This document shows, piece after piece, positions 4,258 through 55,004 of a stretch of DNA of 64,000 bases (positions are counted from its first letter, which is position 1; each line of letters opens with the position of its first letter). A program made the position numbers and the translations under genes. Source of the DNA: Gammaproteobacteria bacterium. GTDB taxonomy: Bacteria; Pseudomonadota; Gammaproteobacteria; Eutrophobiales; Eutrophobiaceae. The stretch lies in contig OZ245888.1 of the NCBI GenBank assembly GCA_965229565.1, positions 37,801 through 101,800 on the forward strand. Direction: 5' to 3'. Under the pieces are notes generated by a model. That model worked only from the letters and a program-made list of their open reading frames with translations, did not search any database and was not told where the DNA came from.

Positions 4258-5616
4258 CTAGTTAACTGTTTCATCTCCCTTCAACCCAATCGGGAATTTA
4301 CTGAGGTAATCATTGGGAAACTTTCCATCAAACGTGATTTCATCGATGAACTCGGTTTGTGCCGGTTTGTAACCATCGGTATCCCACGGGATGTCTTCTT
4401 TCTTAATCAAACCTTCCTCAACCAGTTCCTTTGCCGCTGCCAGGTAGATGTCAGGTCGGTAAACTTTCTTAGCGACTTCGTGATACCAGCTATCCGGCCT
4501 GGATTCTGTAATCTGTCCCCAGCGACGCATCTGTGTCAGATACCAGATCGCATCGCTGTAAAACGGATAAGTGGCAAAGTAACGATAGAAAACGTTGAAA
4601 TCGGGAAGTGAGCGTTTATCACCCTTCTCGTATTCAAAGGTGCCTGTCATGCTGTTGGCAATCACCTCGTAGTCAGCGCCGACGTATTCAGAACGAGACA
4701 GGATCTCGACTGCTTCCTCGCGATTGGCGTCGTTATTGGCATCCAGCCATTGCGCTGCGCGTATTAATGCCTTGACTACAGCCTTGTGGGTATTCGGATT
4801 GGCCTCGGCCCACTCCGCGCTGACACCGAAGACTTTTTCCGGGTTATTTTTCCAGATCTCGTAGTCGGTAATGACTGGCACACCGATCCCCTTGAAGACG
4901 GCTTGCTGGTTCCAGGGCTCGCCCACGCAATAACCGTATATCGTGCCAGCCTCCATGGTTGCCGGCATCTGCGGCGGTGGTGTTACCGACAACAGTGCAT
5001 CGGCACTGATCTGACCGGTAATATCATTCTTTGAGTAATACCCCGGGTGGATGCCACCGGCTGCAAGCCAGTAACGTAATTCGTAGTTATGGGTAGACAC
5101 CGGGAACACCATACCCATGTTGAATGGTTTACCCTCGGCCTTGTACTCATCGACTACTGGTTTCAGGTAGTCGGCCTTAATGGGATGTACCGGCTTACCA
5201 TCTTCACCCTTAGGTACGTATTGTTTCATCTGTTCCCAGATATCATTGGAGACAGTAATTCCGTTTCCATTCAGGTCCATACTGAACGCGGTAATGACGT
5301 CAGCCTTGGTACCAAAACCGATGGTTGCGCCTAGTGGCTGGCCGGCCAGCATGTGTGCGCCATCCAGTTCACCATCAATAACTCGATCCAGTAATACCTT
5401 CCAGTTGGCCTGGGGTTCCAGAGTGACGTACAGACCTTCGTCCTCGAAATAACCTTTTTCATAGGCGATCGCCAGCGGCGCCATATCCGTCAGTTTGATA
5501 AAACCAAACTTGAGGTCTTCCTTCTCCAGATCTTCAAAAGCGTGAGCGTTGCCTGCAAGAAGCAGGGACGCCGCAAGAAAGCTTCTAATTACAGTATTCC
5601 AGTATTTACTACGCAT
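4258..5616 (-). CDS. nrtA: Nitrate/nitrite ABC transporter periplasmic substrate-binding protein
   Basis: 452 aa with a signal peptide ([26 protein letters not shown]) and an NrtA/NMT1-like fold. It is paralogous to the cytoplasmic NasS gene upstream. Confidence 0.8.
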
Positions 5617-19502: not shown

Positions 19503-19602
19503 TGGCGGCCCGGAGGGATTGACTCGCTACATCCCTGCAGCTCGCACTTCGTGCAAACTGCGTTTGCCCAAATCGGCAATCCTACCGATTTGTCGAACAT
19601 CG
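19503..19602. repeat. tRNA-3'-end-derived structured repeat, copy B (family shared with 53957-54067)
   Basis: Begins TGGCGGCCCGGAGGGA, which is the reverse complement of a tRNA-Arg acceptor/T-arm 3' end. It is followed by hairpins that retain pairing through compensatory substitutions relative to copy A. It ends with a CAAATCG...CGATTTG hairpin. Confidence 0.5.
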
Positions 19603-19662
19603 TTCTCGTCCCACCAACAGTAATCCATAAAAAAAACCACCTTGCGGTGGCTTTCTTATGGA

Positions 19663-19739
19663 TGGCGCGCCCGGAGGGACTCGAACCCCCAACCCTCGGG
19701 TTCGAAGCCCGATACTCTATCCAGTTGAGCTACAGGCGC
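19663..19739 (-). tRNA. tRNA-Arg, anticodon TCG
   Basis: Reverse complement GCGCCTGTAGCTCAACTGGATAGAGTATCGGGCTTCGAACCCGAGGGTTGGGGGTTCGAGTCCCTCCGGGCGCGCCA folds as a cloverleaf with a 7-bp acceptor stem and anticodon loop CTTCGAA. A T-run terminator lies downstream on the minus strand (19631-19656). Confidence 0.75.
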
Positions 19740-52491: not shown

Positions 52492-53748
52492 TCAGGAGAA
52501 AGTCATTGTTCTCTCGGTGGGTAGTTCATCGATATCCCCTGCCATGATGCGGTTACGAACATAAACACTGATTCGGTAGCGTTCCATATCCTGAAGGTCA
52601 TGAAAACTTACACCGATAGAGATATCGTCCTGATCCTCGTTGAGGTCTTTCCATAACACTGTCGCATTCGTGGTGACCTTGAGGTAATCATCCTCGGAAT
52701 CAGATGGAATATAAAATTCCAGGAAAAGTTTACTCCCCAGTTCGATGTCAGAGGTAACACGCAGGTTGGCACCGCTGACGGAAAGATTCACTTTCTCTGC
52801 AAAGATAAAACCCTCATCAGGCTGACATTGAATTCTTACCTTGAGTGTCACAGCGGCACGATGATCCCAGCGCAATTCTTTATCCATATCTTCTATGTTG
52901 CAATCGATACCCATTGCTTTTTCCAGGGCCAGTGCAAACTCACGACAGGAATGGAAACGTTTACGCGAATTCTTTTCCAGTGCCTTCAGTACCACCTTGT
53001 CAACTTTCTCGGGAATATCCTTGACCAAGCTTGATGGTTTATTAACCGGTGTTTCCTGATGACTTTTGAGCATCTCGCTGACAGTGCTGGCTTTTGTAAA
53101 AGGATGTCTGCCGGTCAACATCTTGTAGAGGATGATCCCAAGCGAATAAATATCTGCACGGGCATCCATGTGCTGGCAATTGATATGTTCCGGTGACATG
53201 TAACCCGGTGTACCGTTGGGTTTACCTTCAAGGAAAGACTGTTCTTCAAGAAATTTGGCAATACCAAAATCCATAATCAACACTTCACCACTGAGACTGA
53301 TGCGGATATTGCCGGGCTTCAAGTCGAGATGAACAATACCAAGGTTGTGTGCATATTCCATTGCCCACAGTATCTTTTGCATGATCTTTAGCGCCTGGCT
53401 TACCTTGAATGGTTTTTTTTGATTGGCAAGTATCTGATCCAGGTCGCCACCGCTGATCAGGCGCATAACGATCAGTACCGATTTCTTATAATCCAGGATG
53501 TCGTACACGGGGACAATATTGGAGTGTTCTGCCAGCGCGTGTATGCGGGCCTCGCGGATGATGGATTCCTTGTTGAATTTCCTGTTCACCAGGTCAGTTG
53601 AACGGACCTTGATCGCGACATATCGCTGTAGCTCATGGTCATAGGCCTTGTACACGTCTCCGAAGGTGCCACTGCCAATGACGTCCTTAAGCTCGTACCG
53701 GCCTATCCTTGTTCCCTCTAGCGTCACTGGTTTGGTCTTCGCGAACAT
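52492..53748 (-). CDS. Hanks-type Ser/Thr protein kinase fused to a C-terminal PilZ (c-di-GMP-binding) domain
   Basis: - Kinase motifs: GSGTFGDVYKA, VAIK, HLDLKPGNI, DFGIAK, SPE.
- C-terminal ~130 aa carries RWDHR (RxxxR) and, 27 residues later, NLSVSG ((D/N)xSxxG). Confidence 0.6.
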   Translation of the reverse strand: MFAKTKPVTLEGTRIGRYELKDVIGSGTFGDVYKAYDHELQRYVAIKVRSTDLVNRKFNKESIIREARIHALAEHSNIVPVYDILDYKKSVLIVMRLISGGDLDQILANQKKPFKVSQALKIMQKILWAMEYAHNLGIVHLDLKPGNIRISLSGEVLIMDFGIAKFLEEQSFLEGKPNGTPGYMSPEHINCQHMDARADIYSLGIILYKMLTGRHPFTKASTVSEMLKSHQETPVNKPSSLVKDIPEKVDKVVLKALEKNSRKRFHSCREFALALEKAMGIDCNIEDMDKELRWDHRAAVTLKVRIQCQPDEGFIFAEKVNLSVSGANLRVTSDIELGSKLFLEFYIPSDSEDDYLKVTTNATVLWKDLNEDQDDISIGVSFHDLQDMERYRISVYVRNRIMAGDIDELPTERTMTFS

Positions 53749-53931
53749 GTCGATAAATTAAATTCTAGTATAAAAAGCCCTGTCCAGGCATCTCACCGTT
53801 CTGGACATACAGATACCTGACTGCAGCCATCACCTCTATATCGGACGATACAGATTGTTCTTGAGAAATGATTGTTAGATCGTGTATTCGAGAATTAGTC
53901 GAACTGCGCTTTCATCCTGCTGAAAACAATC

Positions 53932-53956
53932 CATAAAAAAACCTGCACATGGCAGG
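53932..53956. terminator. Hairpin plus A/T runs (AAAAAAAA-CCTGC-ACATG-GCAGG-TTTATTTAT)
   Basis: Follows the 3' end of repeat A on the minus strand, and the kinase gene on the plus side. Confidence 0.45.
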
Positions 53957-54067
53957 TTTATTTATATGGCGCGCCCGGAAGGACTGACTCGCGACGTCCT
54001 GTCGCTCGCACTGCGTACAGACTAGCGTCTGCCCAAATCGTCTATCCTGACGATTTGTCGAACCGAC
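53957..54067. repeat. tRNA-Arg-3'-end-derived structured repeat, copy A (degenerate tRNA-like unit)
   Basis: Begins TGGCGCGCCCGGAAGGA, identical to the reverse complement of the adjacent tRNA-Arg 3' end. The rest is ~80% identical to copy B (19503-19602), with compensatory changes in three hairpins. There is no 5' acceptor strand. Confidence 0.55.
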
Positions 54068-54145
54068 TTGTTTATTGTCGGAGGGTCAAATTCATGCAAC
54101 TCCATAAATAAAAAAACCCGCACAAGGCAGGTCTGTTTATTTATA

Positions 54146-54222
54146 TGGCGCGCCCGGAAGGATTCGAACCTCCGACCCCCTAGTTCGTAGCCAGGTACTC
54201 TATCCAACTGAGCTACGGGCGC
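54146..54222 (-). tRNA. tRNA-Arg, anticodon ACG
   Basis: Reverse complement GCGCCCGTAGCTCAGTTGGATAGAGTACCTGGCTACGAACTAGGGGGTCGGAGGTTCGAATCCTTCCGGGCGCGCCA, with anticodon loop CTACGAA and a T-run terminator downstream. Confidence 0.85.
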
Positions 54223-54272
54223 GTTGCAAAATTTGAGCGGCGAATAATATCTGACTTGCGTATTTAGTCAAA

Positions 54273-54378
54273 TGGCGGAGAGAGAGGGACTACAAAATAC
54301 ATCCTGTATTTTGCCCTGCGGGCCAGCCTGCGGCTGTTCCGATTTGTTCCCGACAAATCGGTCAAACCCTCTTCTCGG
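54273..54378. repeat. tRNA-Ser-3'-end-derived structured repeat, copy C
   Basis: Begins TGGCGGAGAGAGAGGGA, which is the reverse complement of the tRNA-Ser 3' end. Followed by hairpins GCCCTGCGGGC, CAGCCTGCGGCTG and CCGATTTGT-TCCCG-ACAAATCGG. The tail CCCTCTTCTC can pair with the head. Confidence 0.5.
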
Positions 54379-54442
54379 CTATCGCATCTACCTTTCGTGA
54401 ATCATTCAAATATTCATATCATTAATATGAATATTTGAATGA

Positions 54443-54534
54443 TGGCGGAGAGAGAGGGATTCGAACCCTCGATACGGGATAAACCGTATACTCCCTTAGC
54501 AGGGGAGCGCCTTCAGCCACTCGGCCACCTCTCC
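54443..54534 (-). tRNA. tRNA-Ser, anticodon GCT
   Basis: Reverse complement GGAGAGGTGGCCGAGTGGCTGAAGGCGCTCCCCTGCTAAGGGAG...GGTTCGAATCCCTCTCTCTCCGCCA, with a long variable arm and anticodon loop CTGCTAA. Confidence 0.85.
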
Positions 54535-54567
54535 TAATAAACTACTATGATTTATAAATTCTTTTCA

Positions 54568-54686
54568 CTGGCGCTCCTGTCGCGCCCTACTCCGGGCATC
54601 CTGCCCTTCGCCCTTCGGGCCAGTCCACTTCGTGGACTGTTCAAAATCGTTTCCGACGATTTTGTCAGCAATTACAGCTTCCTCTC
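54568..54686. repeat. Structured repeat, copy D (homologous to copy C)
   Basis: Shares GCCCTTCGGGC, CAGTCCACTTCGTGGACTG and AAAATCGTTTCCGACGATTTT hairpins with copy C, with covarying stems. Lies between tRNA-Ser and csrA. Confidence 0.45.
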
Positions 54687-54806
54687 CGAAAAAAACACGG
54701 CTTAACGCCGCGAGTATTGTAATGATTTAGCGAGCAAAATGCTCAGAAATATCAGATAAAAAGCATAACCCTGCAGCGAGGCAGGGTAAAGTCCCGGGGT
54801 GGACTG

Positions 54807-55004
54807 TTACTCTGAAGCTTCTGACGGTACGTCGTCAGATTGCTCTTTCTGTATTCGGTCGTAGATTTCTTCGCGGTGTACGGCGACGTCCTTGGGGGCG
54901 TTCACACCAATTCTCACCTGGTTTCCTCTGATACCCAGTACGGTAACGTTGACCTCGTCACCGATCATGAGCGACTCACCGACTCTTCTGGTCAATATCA
55001 ACAT
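54807..55004 (-). CDS. csrA: Carbon storage regulator CsrA/RsmA
   Basis: [48 protein letters not shown] is near-identical to canonical CsrA. Confidence 0.95.

What the first reader, a model, noticed from the sequence alone, without database searches (positions are those of the whole stretch)
53932..54700. Family of tRNA-3'-end-initiated structured repeats with compensatory base changes around tRNA-Ser/tRNA-Arg (and again at 19503-19602)
**What the sequence shows**

- Four elements of 100-120 nt each are present.
- Two begin with the exact 17-nt 3' end of the neighbouring tRNA: Arg-type for copies A and B, Ser-type for copy C.
- They then diverge into two or three hairpins.
- Copies A and B are ~80% identical and 34 kb apart.
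- Copies C and D share the module GCCCTKCGGGC, a covarying second hairpin, and a CGATTTG/CAAATCG hairpin that also appears in A and B.
- Stems keep pairing through compensatory substitutions, for example GGGAT/ATCCC versus GGAC/GTCC and CAGAC/GTCTG versus CAAAC/GTTTG.
- Copy A has its own downstream terminator, as a tRNA gene would.

**Interpretation**

These are either degenerate tRNA gene copies that have been recruited as structured small RNAs or att-site-like repeats, or a small non-autonomous element that targets tRNA 3' ends.
Basis: seen in the sequence. Interest (0 to 1): 0.55.

Follow-up and report, generated by a model that had tools for sequence, protein, structure and literature searches.

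The report
Hairpin insertion module in tRNA pseudo-copies
The four repeats are copies of a small four-hairpin insertion element, widespread in Gammaproteobacteria, that sits inside decayed partial duplicates of the neighbouring tRNA genes. The same arrangement is seen in the poorly understood RtT repeats behind E. coli tyrT and in the spacer between the rrnB T1 and T2 terminators.

Summary
The window holds exactly four related elements, all on the minus strand, co-oriented with the tRNAs. Each contains a 71-77 nt core ("X") of four hairpins.

- **Homology.** A covariance model built from other genomes' copies finds A and B at E 1e-7 and 4e-10.
- **Covariation.** Across 60 copies, 93% of cells pair, against 23-46% with slid partners.
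- **Position.** X is not tRNA-derived. It is inserted after a GA in a tRNA loop: the T-loop for A, B and C, and probably the D-loop for D.
- **The 17 nt "tRNA end".** This is the pseudo-tRNA sequence 3' of the insertion point.
- **Distribution.** The same core occurs in Yersinia, Serratia, Methylomonas, Halomonas and other genera, in tRNA loops, 5S rRNA fragments, ERIC repeats and rhs and IS genes. It is present or absent between close relatives.
- **Known relatives.** The E. coli RtT repeats (Rfam RF00391) and the rrnB T1-T2 spacer share the layout. The window copies do not reach the RtT model.
- **Open point.** Two near-invariant GGA loops resemble CsrA binding sites. This is untested.

Verdict: a divergent variant of a known, poorly understood kind. 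The mobilising enzyme and the function are unknown. Interest is moderate.

The parts
53985..54057 (-). Copy A, X core (73 nt, four hairpins; divergent 'type 1')
   Evidence: R1 hit 53974-54069, 32.6 bits, E 1e-7, not in the training set. Sequence.
53967..53983 (-). Exact 17-nt copy of tRNA-Arg(ACG) positions 60-76, including CCA. This is the 3' part of a pseudo-tRNA.
   Evidence: D2 (28-nt identity 53956-53983 = 54135-54162).
53939..53959 (-). Terminator after A, a copy of the tRNA-Arg terminator
   Evidence: D1 (88% identity).
54058..54064 (-). GGTTCGA, the T-loop-like 5' junction of A. The insertion point lies after GA.
   Evidence: junction statistics.
54077..54091 (.). Inverted, decayed copy of the tRNA-Arg T-arm in the spacer
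   Evidence: I5 (87% complementary to 54162-54176).
53898..53932 (-). Remnant of the left part of a second, older unit (GGATTGTTTTCAGCAGGATGAAAGCGCAGTTCGAC). It is orthologous to the spacer that precedes X in L004 and L012.
   Evidence: Comparison by eye.
54114..54134 (-). Terminator of tRNA-Arg(ACG)
54146..54222 (-). tRNA-Arg(ACG), intact
54244..54271 (-). Promoter-like site (TTGACT-16-TATTAT) for tRNA-Arg. It follows tRNA-Ser directly in relatives that lack C.
54273..54289 (-). Exact 17-nt copy of the tRNA-Ser(GCT) 3' end
   Evidence: D5.
54291..54361 (-). Copy C, X core (71 nt). The helix 4 apex reads AUACAGGAUGUAU.
   Evidence: R1, 89.5 bits.
54362..54369 (-). GGGTTTGA, the T-arm-like 5' junction of C
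54401..54443 (.). Perfect 19-bp palindrome directly after tRNA-Ser. It is part of the 170-bp unit that is absent in L004 and L012.
   Evidence: I1.
54443..54534 (-). tRNA-Ser(GCT), intact
54588..54664 (-). Copy D, X core (77 nt, long helix 2)
   Evidence: R1, 73.7 bits.
54665..54687 (-). Decayed 5' fragment of tRNA-Ser (GGAGAGGAAGCTGTAATTGCTGA, compared with GGAGAGGTGGCCGAGTGGCTGA) ending at the D-loop GA
   Evidence: About 16 of 23 positions match by eye. The same D-loop site is used in L018, L019 and L028.
54569..54587 (-). 3' flank of D: GGCGC-GACA-GGAGCGCC, a fold-back of the tRNA-Ser segment that follows the D-loop
   Evidence: inference.
19520..19592 (-). Copy B, X core (73 nt, type 1)
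   Evidence: R1, 41.4 bits, E 4e-10, not in the training set.
19503..19519 (-). Copy of tRNA-Arg(TCG) positions 59-76 with one nucleotide deleted
19636..19648 (-). Terminator of tRNA-Arg(TCG)
19663..19739 (-). tRNA-Arg(TCG), intact

Best explanation
Each element is a copy of a ~72-nt, four-hairpin, non-autonomous insertion module (X). It sits inside a redundant, decaying partial duplicate of the adjacent tRNA gene.

**Shown**
- X lies exactly after a GA and before an A or T, and nothing is duplicated at the site.
- In A, B and C the site is in a T-loop, between positions 58 and 59. In D it is probably a D-loop.
- The resulting layout is: tRNA, terminator, spacer, GGTTCGA, X, tRNA positions 59/60-76, second terminator.
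- The RtT repeats behind E. coli tyrT/tyrV and the rrnB T1-T2 spacer have the same layout.
- X is gained and lost between close relatives.

**Inferred**
- X is mobilised in trans and strand-specifically. It probably moves as single-stranded DNA, as IS200/IS605-derived or REP-like hairpin elements do.
- Insertions into single-copy essential tRNA genes survive only when the target segment is duplicated. This would explain why every tRNA-linked copy lies beside an intact cognate tRNA.
- The units are co-transcribed with the tRNA operon: C as a trailer, A and B by terminator read-through. That would yield RtT-like RNAs.
For: **Family membership and structure**
- R1, built from copies in other genomes, hits A and B full length.
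- On 60 copies, 93.3% of cells pair, against 23-46% with slid partners. 18 of 26 pairs change on both sides, and 0 of 500 shuffles reach this.

**Distribution**
- nhmmer finds 170 copies in 1.04 Mb of fetched loci.

**Precise junctions**
- The two bases 5' of X are G (107 of 144) and A (132 of 144), and nothing further upstream is conserved.
- X interrupts known sequences exactly:
  - tRNA D-loops in L018, L019 and L028;
  - an anticodon loop in L125;
  - T-loops in L084 and L119;
  - the 5S rRNA 3' region in E. coli, Salmonella and Citrobacter;
  - a Proteus rhs gene, where removing 72 nt restores QYFDKDTGLHYNTFRYYAPD;
  - X itself, nested in the helix 3 loop.

**Presence or absence between relatives**
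- C and D are absent from L004 and L012, whose LysC is 91-92% identical. There tRNA-Ser is followed directly by the sequence that follows C in the window.
- More distant relatives have no X at this locus.
- The E. coli queA-acpH ERIC carries X in 2 of 5426 genomes. The empty ERIC reads ...GTGA|AGGC....

**tRNA association**
- 42 of 144 copies lie within 600 nt of a tRNA, and 40 of those 42 are on the tRNA's strand.

**RtT link**
- Rfam RtT hits the four tyrT units at 133-137 bits.
- R1 aligns the same units full length at E 5e-5 to 5e-4.
Against: - No transposase or other mobilising enzyme was identified, and no full-length autonomous element was found.
- T-loop copies in several genomes and tRNA species share a conserved 5' flank, (G)GATGAGAAC-NNN-GGTTCGA. 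This flank does not come from the local tRNA, while the 3' flank is exactly local. Simple insertion of X alone into a local duplicate does not explain this. It suggests that a larger unit moves or recombines at the T-loop.
- An inverted copy of the tRNA 3' end often precedes X. My complementarity test did not separate T-loop copies from the others.
- The 3' junction of the E. coli ERIC insertion is off by 2-3 nt.
- Copies within this genome are only 70-80% alike, so nothing shows recent activity here.
- Absence in relatives could equally be loss by recombination between the 17-nt repeats.
Confidence: 0.7

Rival explanations
1. X is primarily a selected, functional RNA module. It would be transcribed from tRNA and rRNA operon trailers, and its two GGA hairpin loops would bind or titrate CsrA, like a unit of CsrB or RsmX/Y/Z. 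Its spread would be secondary. This reading is compatible with mobility.
For: - GGA is present in the helix 1 loop in 142 of 144 copies.
- The helix 4 apex reads CA(N)GGANG in 120 of 131 distinct copies, and 21 match ACA(R)GGAUGU.
- Window copy C reads AUACAGGAUGUAU, against the SELEX consensus RUACARGGAUGU with GGA in a hairpin loop (PMC7652899).
- The two GGA motifs are 32-55 nt apart (median 44). This lies within the 10-63 nt range that a CsrA dimer can bridge.
- The helix 4 stem varies freely but keeps pairing, as expected if only the loop and the fold matter.
- Element A gives a weak Rfam rsmX hit: 22.7 bits, E 0.088.
- RtT is reported as a stable processed RNA in E. coli (cited in PMC4986893).
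Against: - There are no expression or binding data.
- The E. coli RtT units have lost both GGA loops.
- Many copies lie inside genes or other repeats, where a titrating RNA makes little sense.
- A and B lie behind efficient-looking terminators and have no promoter of their own.
- No GacA-type box is nearby.
- The rsmX score is far below the gathering score of 56.
- GGA loops could equally be what a mobilising protein recognises.
Confidence: 0.25
2. Insertion happens at the RNA level. X RNA would enter loops of folded tRNA, 5S rRNA or mRNA, for example by reverse splicing or cleavage and ligation, and would be fixed in the genome through a cDNA.
For: - All tRNA and 5S sites are single-stranded loops of the folded RNA.
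- 40 of 42 tRNA-linked copies are in the sense orientation, although TTCGAA is a palindrome.
- Duplicated segments run up to and include the terminators.
Against: - No reverse transcriptase or ribozyme signature was found.
- No Rfam ribozyme family hits the elements.
- Loops of a tRNA gene also form in single-stranded DNA.
- Sense bias is equally expected from insertion into the lagging-strand template of co-oriented genes.
- GNA triloops (GCA, GAA, GGA) are typical of stable DNA hairpins (from my own knowledge).
Confidence: 0.1
3. The repeats are attL/attR remnants left by integrase-mediated integration and deletion of genomic islands at tRNA genes.
For: - The tRNA 3' end is directly repeated, starting in the T-loop, which is a classic integrase crossover site (from my own knowledge).
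- Other relatives carry islands at this tRNA-Ser: L008 has a serine recombinase and T4SS genes, and L014 has Zorya-like genes.
- The conserved non-local 5' flank combined with an exactly local 3' flank looks like an attR junction.
Against: - No integrase lies near either locus.
- Three units all have a 160-180 bp period.
- The same core is inserted in D-loops, an anticodon loop, 5S rRNA, rhs, IS genes and ERIC.
- Scans of viral contigs gave only chance hits.
Confidence: 0.05
4. The elements are simply degenerate tRNA genes, and their bodies have drifted into hairpins.
For: The flanks are tRNA fragments. E. coli has tandem tRNA-Arg genes at the equivalent csrA-serV locus (from my own knowledge).
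Against: - The core is homologous between Arg-, Ser-, Gln-, Tyr- and 5S-linked copies and copies unrelated to tRNA.
- Neither ARAGORN nor the Rfam tRNA model scores the elements.
Confidence: 0.03

Closest known systems
RtT RNA / RttR (Rfam RF00391): the 178-bp repeats distal to E. coli tyrT and tyrV
   Same: - Both lie behind a tRNA gene and end with that tRNA's last 17-19 nt, including CCA.
- Both have a period of about 160-180 bp.
- Both read GGTTCGA + core + ATCC...
- Both carry an upstream inverted T-arm segment: GGATGAGAAG in RtT, GGGACGAGAAC in B.
- The core aligns to the same four-helix model.
- Copy number and location vary between strains (PMC7542023).
   Different: - The window copies give no RF00391 hit, even at E <= 10.
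- They are linked to Arg and Ser tRNAs.
- They keep both GGA loops, which RtT has lost.
- D is a D-loop insertion upstream of its tRNA.
Spacer between the rrnB (and rrnA) T1 and T2 terminators of Enterobacteriaceae
   Same: The architecture is identical. It runs: 3' end of the 5S rRNA gene, T1, a decayed 5S fragment ending GGA, X, an 18-nt copy of the 5S 3' end (AACTGCCAGGCATCAAAT), then T2. R1 scores these copies 71-77 bits.
   Different: The host gene is 5S rRNA, not a tRNA. The copies are conserved across Escherichia, Salmonella and Citrobacter.
IS200/IS605-derived palindrome-associated elements and REP/RAYT repeats (hairpin elements moved as single-stranded DNA)
   Same: - No terminal inverted repeats and no target duplication.
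- Hairpins next to both ends.
- Insertion 3' of a short specific sequence.
- Strong strand bias.
   Different: - No Y1/HUH transposase was linked to X here.
- The hairpins sit 0-3 nt from the ends.
- The stem of the 3' hairpin is not conserved in sequence.
Csr/Rsm titrating sRNAs (CsrB, RsmX/Y/Z)
   Same: GGA motifs lie in hairpin loops with a CA(N)GGANG context, and two sites sit at bridging distance.
   Different: - There are only two sites per unit.
- The element has no promoter of its own.
- It is a dispersed repeat.
- The Rfam score is well below threshold.

Membership tests
RtT RNA (Rfam RF00391) | Scores at or above the family's gathering score of 45 bits | tested here: not met
   No RtT hit in the window at the gathering threshold, nor at E <= 10 in 53700-54900. 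The E. coli units score 133-137 bits.
RtT RNA (Rfam RF00391) | Lies in a tRNA operon trailer and ends with the last 17-19 nt of the upstream tRNA, including CCA | tested here: met
   A and C carry an exact 17 nt. B lacks one nucleotide. D does not meet this feature.
RtT RNA (Rfam RF00391) | Core homologous to the RtT core | tested here: met
   One model (R1) aligns A-D and all four tyrT units full length at 17-20.5 bits, E 5e-5 to 5e-4. The RtT scores are weak and the E-values rough.
RtT RNA (Rfam RF00391) | Released as a stable RNA by processing of the tRNA precursor | not testable with these tools
   No expression data are available for this organism.
X module family (defined here; no published name found) | Four helices in the order H1-AA/GG-H2-H3-H4-(G/A)UA, with pairing kept through covariation | tested here: met
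   H3 is CAC/GUG (B) and UAC/GUG (A) instead of CCC/GGG.
X module family (defined here; no published name found) | GGA in the loops of H1 and H4 | tested here: met
   All four window copies have both. Family frequencies are 142 of 144 and 120 of 131.
X module family (defined here; no published name found) | 5' junction directly after GA, with no target duplication | tested here: met
   A and B follow TTCGA, C follows TTTGA and D follows GCTGA.
Classical bacterial MITE | Terminal inverted repeats and a target-site duplication | tested here: not met
   The ends, CAAAT... and ...GTA, are not inverted repeats. Filled-versus-empty comparisons show no duplication.
IS200/IS605-type or REP-type hairpin elements moved as single-stranded DNA | Hairpins near the ends, insertion 3' of a fixed short sequence, no duplication, strand bias | tested here: met
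IS200/IS605-type or REP-type hairpin elements moved as single-stranded DNA | A cognate Y1/HUH transposase, with matching ends on an autonomous element | not tested
   None was seen next to the copies examined. No genome-wide co-occurrence analysis was possible.
Integrase att-site remnants at tRNA genes | An integrase or island between or beside the direct repeats | tested here: not met
   The neighbouring genes are csrA, lysC, alaS, a kinase-PilZ protein, a hydrolase, a glyoxalase-family protein, a HemN-like protein and a Sel1 protein.
Csr/Rsm titrating sRNAs | Matches a Csr/Rsm covariance model, and has its own GacA-dependent promoter | tested here: not met
   rsmX scores 22.7 bits against a gathering score of 56. 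No GacA-like box lies near the elements.
Csr/Rsm titrating sRNAs | Binds CsrA | not testable with these tools
   Only motif resemblance is available.

The most novel reading that the evidence does not exclude
X would be an unrecognised class of small, strand-specific hairpin insertion elements of Gammaproteobacteria. On this reading it does three things:
- it homes to GA^A in hairpin loops of stable-RNA genes;
- it generated both the E. coli RtT repeats and the tandem rrnB T1-T2 terminator used in cloning vectors;
- it carries two near-invariant CsrA-type GGA loops, so that tRNA and rRNA operon read-through would produce mobile CsrA-binding RNAs that couple stable-RNA transcription to the Csr system.
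Probability: 0.2. Interest if true: 0.75.

Novelty: new variant of a known kind. Interest (0 to 1): 0.5.

Why it matters
RtT has been an orphan since 1991. It has an Rfam family and an annotated E. coli sRNA, but no mechanism.

Placing the window's repeats, RtT and the rrnB T1-T2 spacer in one family makes RtT testable. The family is defined by:
- a four-helix core;
- a precise GA^A/T insertion site;
- clear gain and loss between relatives.

It also gives an origin for the partial tRNA and 5S duplications that flank many gammaproteobacterial stable-RNA genes.

The conserved CsrA-like loops give one concrete biochemical hypothesis. If X is only a selfish hairpin element, the result is mainly useful for annotation: it explains pseudo-tRNA ends that could otherwise be mistaken for att sites.

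Tried and rejected
- **Rfam.** Only the tRNAs pass the thresholds. The sub-threshold hits (plastid UTR families, miRNAs, leaders) are tRNA antisense, palindrome or terminator artefacts.
- **Viral contigs, both core patterns.** The three hits were collagen-like or helicase coding sequence with no tRNA, so chance matches.
- **Metagenome scan with the A/B-type pattern.** It gave one locus, which R1 does not recognise. The A/B subtype was therefore not found outside this species.
- **Literature search by sequence string and by topic.** No description of the module was found.
- **Integrase or att reading.** No recombinase lies near either locus.
- **GacA box near the elements.** None was found.
- **In-frame peptide insertion, as in Rickettsia RPEs.** Rejected: core lengths show no bias towards multiples of three.
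- **Inverted tRNA-end arm upstream of T-loop copies.** The longest exact complementary run averaged 5.5 nt in T-loop copies and 5.1 nt in the others. The arm is visible by eye in about half the cases but is not statistically established.
It competes with family helix 4. It follows trivially from a GGA loop lying next to the ...TCC of a T-stem.
Full report
**Locus layout.** All features lie on the minus strand. The order is:
- alaS, lysC, csrA, then two terminators;
- element D, then tRNA-Ser(GCT), then a perfect 19-bp palindrome;
- element C, then a promoter-like site, then tRNA-Arg(ACG) and its terminator;
- element A, then a second terminator, then a Ser/Thr-kinase-PilZ gene.

Element B follows tRNA-Arg(TCG) and its terminator, 34 kb away. 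The contig belongs to an uncultured gammaproteobacterium (GCA_040217615.1). Its aspartokinase relatives include one MAG named Thiotrichaceae.

**Checking the observation.**
- A shares 28 identical nucleotides with tRNA-Arg(ACG): the last 17 nt of the tRNA plus part of its terminator.
- C shares the last 17 nt of tRNA-Ser.
- B carries the matching end of its own neighbour, tRNA-Arg(TCG), minus one base.
- Read in the direction of the tRNA genes, the elements end with the tRNA 3' end rather than start with it.
- The hairpin motif CAAATCG-N10-CGATTTG occurs twice, against 0.39 expected by chance.
- RNA folding z-scores range from -1.6 to -4.7.

**The core is a widespread module, not tRNA.** The genera include Yersinia, Serratia, Brenneria, Pragia, Methylomonas, Methylobacter, Halomonas, Marinobacter, Alishewanella, Thalassolituus, Kangiella and Ectothiorhodospira, plus Lysobacterales and many MAGs.

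I aligned sixty non-redundant copies. They fit four helices, H1 to H4.
- 93.3% of cells pair, against 23-46% when the partners are slid.
- 18 of 26 pairs change on both sides.
- 0 of 500 shuffles reach the observed values.
- H2 and H3 were partly fixed by my search pattern. H1 and H4 were not, and they carry most of the covariation.

A covariance model built from this alignment (R1) was run over the window with filters off.
- It finds exactly four hits.
- A (E 1e-7) and B (E 4e-10) were not in the training set.
- The next best hit scores 9 bits.
- A and B are therefore a divergent subtype of the same family. Their H3 is CAC/GUG (B) and UAC/GUG (A).

The family does not conserve it.

- The two bases 5' of the core are G (107 of 144) and A (132 of 144). 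Positions further upstream are not conserved.
- The core is most often 71-73 nt long, with no bias towards multiples of three.
- Removing the core restores known sequences:
  - tRNA-Ser D-loops (GGTTGA|A) in L018, L019 and L028;
  - an anticodon loop (CTCGA|A) in L125;
  - T-loops (GGTTCGA|ATCC) in L084, L119, L050, L071 and others;
  - the 5S rRNA 3' region (GGGA|ACTGCC);
  - a Proteus rhs reading frame.
- Copies are also nested in the GAA loop of another copy's H3 (L031, L069, L135).
- Other copies lie inside an IS91-like gene (L055, L126) and inside ERIC repeats (L026, L030, L088, L140).
- Every site in a tRNA or 5S sequence is a loop of the folded single strand.
- Of the 144 copies, 42 lie within 600 nt of a tRNA gene. 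40 of those 42 are on the tRNA's strand.

**Gain and loss.**
- Relatives with 91-92% identical LysC (L004, L012) have neither C nor D. In them tRNA-Ser is followed directly by TTTGACTAAATA..., the sequence that follows C in the window. C plus its palindrome and its 17-nt repeat is therefore a 170-bp indel.
- Both relatives have one C/D-type unit behind tRNA-Arg. Its copy of the tRNA-Arg 3' end is exact (18 nt) in L012 and decayed in L004.
- The window has an A-type unit at that place. Just beyond A's terminator lies a remnant of the relatives' spacer (53898-53932).
- Relatives at 81-89% LysC identity have no X at this locus.
- Within E. coli, the queA-acpH ERIC carries X in 2 of 5426 genomes. 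About 820 genomes have the ERIC without X, reading ...GTGA|AGGC.... The 3' junction differs by 2-3 nt.

**Link to known biology.**
- A consensus query hit cloning vectors at the rrnB T1-T2 region.
- In E. coli K-12 the order is: rrfB, T1, a decayed 5S fragment ending GGA, X, an 18-nt copy of the 5S 3' end, T2. The names T1 and T2 are from my own knowledge. Salmonella and Citrobacter have the same arrangement.
- The tyrT-tyrV locus of K-12 shows four units of the form GGGGAAGGATGAGAAGC...GGTTCGA + core + ATCCTTCCCCCACCACCA. These are the RtT repeats (RF00391, 133-137 bits).
- R1 aligns all four units full length, weakly, at E 5e-5 to 5e-4.
- RF00391 does not detect the window elements or the other loci tested.
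- Published notes say that RtT-family hits lie next to other tRNA genes and vary between strains, and that their function is unknown (PMC4986893, PMC7542023).
- I found no paper that describes the core as an insertion module or links it to rrnB.

**How it most likely works.**

*Shown:*
- insertion is precise and produces no duplication;
- the site lies after GA;
- the core is polymorphic between relatives;
- it is co-oriented with the tRNA genes;
- each tRNA-linked copy examined sits in a partial copy of a stable-RNA gene beside the intact gene.

*Inferred:*
- X is non-autonomous and is moved in trans on a single strand. The lack of terminal repeats and duplications, the hairpins at both ends, the short fixed target and the GNA triloops all resemble IS200/IS605-derived or REP-type elements.
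- Hits in essential single-copy genes persist only where the target segment is duplicated.

*Unexplained:*
- T-loop copies next to Gln, Arg, Ser and Tyr tRNAs in different genomes share the flank (G)GATGAGAAC-NNN-GGTTCGA. This flank is not local, while the 3' flank is exactly local.
- An inverted copy of the tRNA 3' end often sits between the terminator and X. This gives a sense-antisense-sense layout that pivots on the terminator and T-arm palindromes. My statistical test of this was negative.
- A larger unit may therefore recombine at the T-loop.

**A functional lead.**
- GGA is nearly invariant in the loops of H1 (142 of 144 copies) and H4. The H4 apex reads CA(N)GGANG in 120 of 131 distinct copies.
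- The two motifs are 32-55 nt apart.
- Copy C reads AUACAGGAUGUAU. This matches the CsrA SELEX consensus RUACARGGAUGU with GGA in a hairpin loop, and the spacing fits bridging by a CsrA dimer (PMC7652899).
- This is resemblance only:
  - the RtT units lack the GGA loops;
  - the only Rfam hint is a sub-threshold rsmX hit on element A;
  - the position next to csrA simply reflects the conserved csrA-tRNA-Ser gene order.

**Verdict.** The elements are divergent, RtT-like members of a broad family of hairpin insertion modules embedded in tRNA pseudo-copies. They are a variant of a known but unexplained kind. The mobilising enzyme and any RNA function remain open.

Noticed in passing
L141 328-424 (E. 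coli K-12 rrnB); L138 3301-3370 (vector pAK51); L143, L144: The spacer between the rrnB (and rrnA) T1 and T2 terminators, carried by many cloning vectors, contains an X copy followed by an 18-nt duplicate of the 5S rRNA 3' end. The RefSeq records examined do not annotate it.
   Followed up: partly
window 54401-54443: A perfect 19-bp AT-rich palindrome with a 5-nt loop lies directly after tRNA-Ser. It belongs to the 170-bp unit that is missing in L004 and L012. Its role, whether terminator or recombination pivot, is unknown.
   Followed up: no
window 53898-53932: After A's terminator lies a remnant (..CAGGATGAAAGCGCAGTTCGAC) of the spacer that precedes X in L004 and L012. No X follows it. This suggests a former second unit truncated by a rearrangement that brought in the kinase gene.
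   Followed up: partly
L012 about 4860-4905: A partial 5' copy of tRNA-Arg (GCGCCCGTAGC...GGATAGAGTAC), with an insertion in the D-loop region, lies just upstream of the intact tRNA-Arg.
   Followed up: no
L069, L135, L031: X copies are nested inside other X copies, inserted at the GA^A of the helix 3 GAA triloop.
   Followed up: partly
L140 2501-2577 compared with L146; L026, L030, L088: X is inserted inside ERIC repeats. In E. coli the queA-acpH ERIC carries X in only 2 of 5426 complete genomes, about 820 have the ERIC alone, and the rest have neither.
   Followed up: yes
L145 about 601-672 (Proteus mirabilis); L055 and L126; L024 and L053; L132: X interrupts protein-coding sequence. The hosts are an rhs gene (the frame is restored when X is removed), an IS91-like transposase gene, the same site of a transposase-like gene in both Marinobacter and Halomonas, and one 1-kb stretch holding five copies.
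   Followed up: partly
L008 5455-8251; L014 4830-7233: In other relatives the tRNA-Ser next to csrA is followed by islands. One has a serine recombinase and T4SS coupling-protein genes. The other has the 3' fragment of a different tRNA and then ZorA-like/OmpA-like (Zorya-type) genes.
   Followed up: no
window 52492-53748 (-): The gene next to element A encodes a Ser/Thr protein kinase fused to a C-terminal PilZ domain. A relative (L017) has a kinase fused to a cNMP-binding domain at the same place, on the opposite strand.
   Followed up: no
L059, L060, L029, L040 and other Methylomonas or Methylobacter loci: In methanotrophs X sits inside a longer species-specific repeat with its own inverted flanks (GATACTTTC...GAAAGTATC), so X is amplified as part of a composite element.
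   Followed up: no
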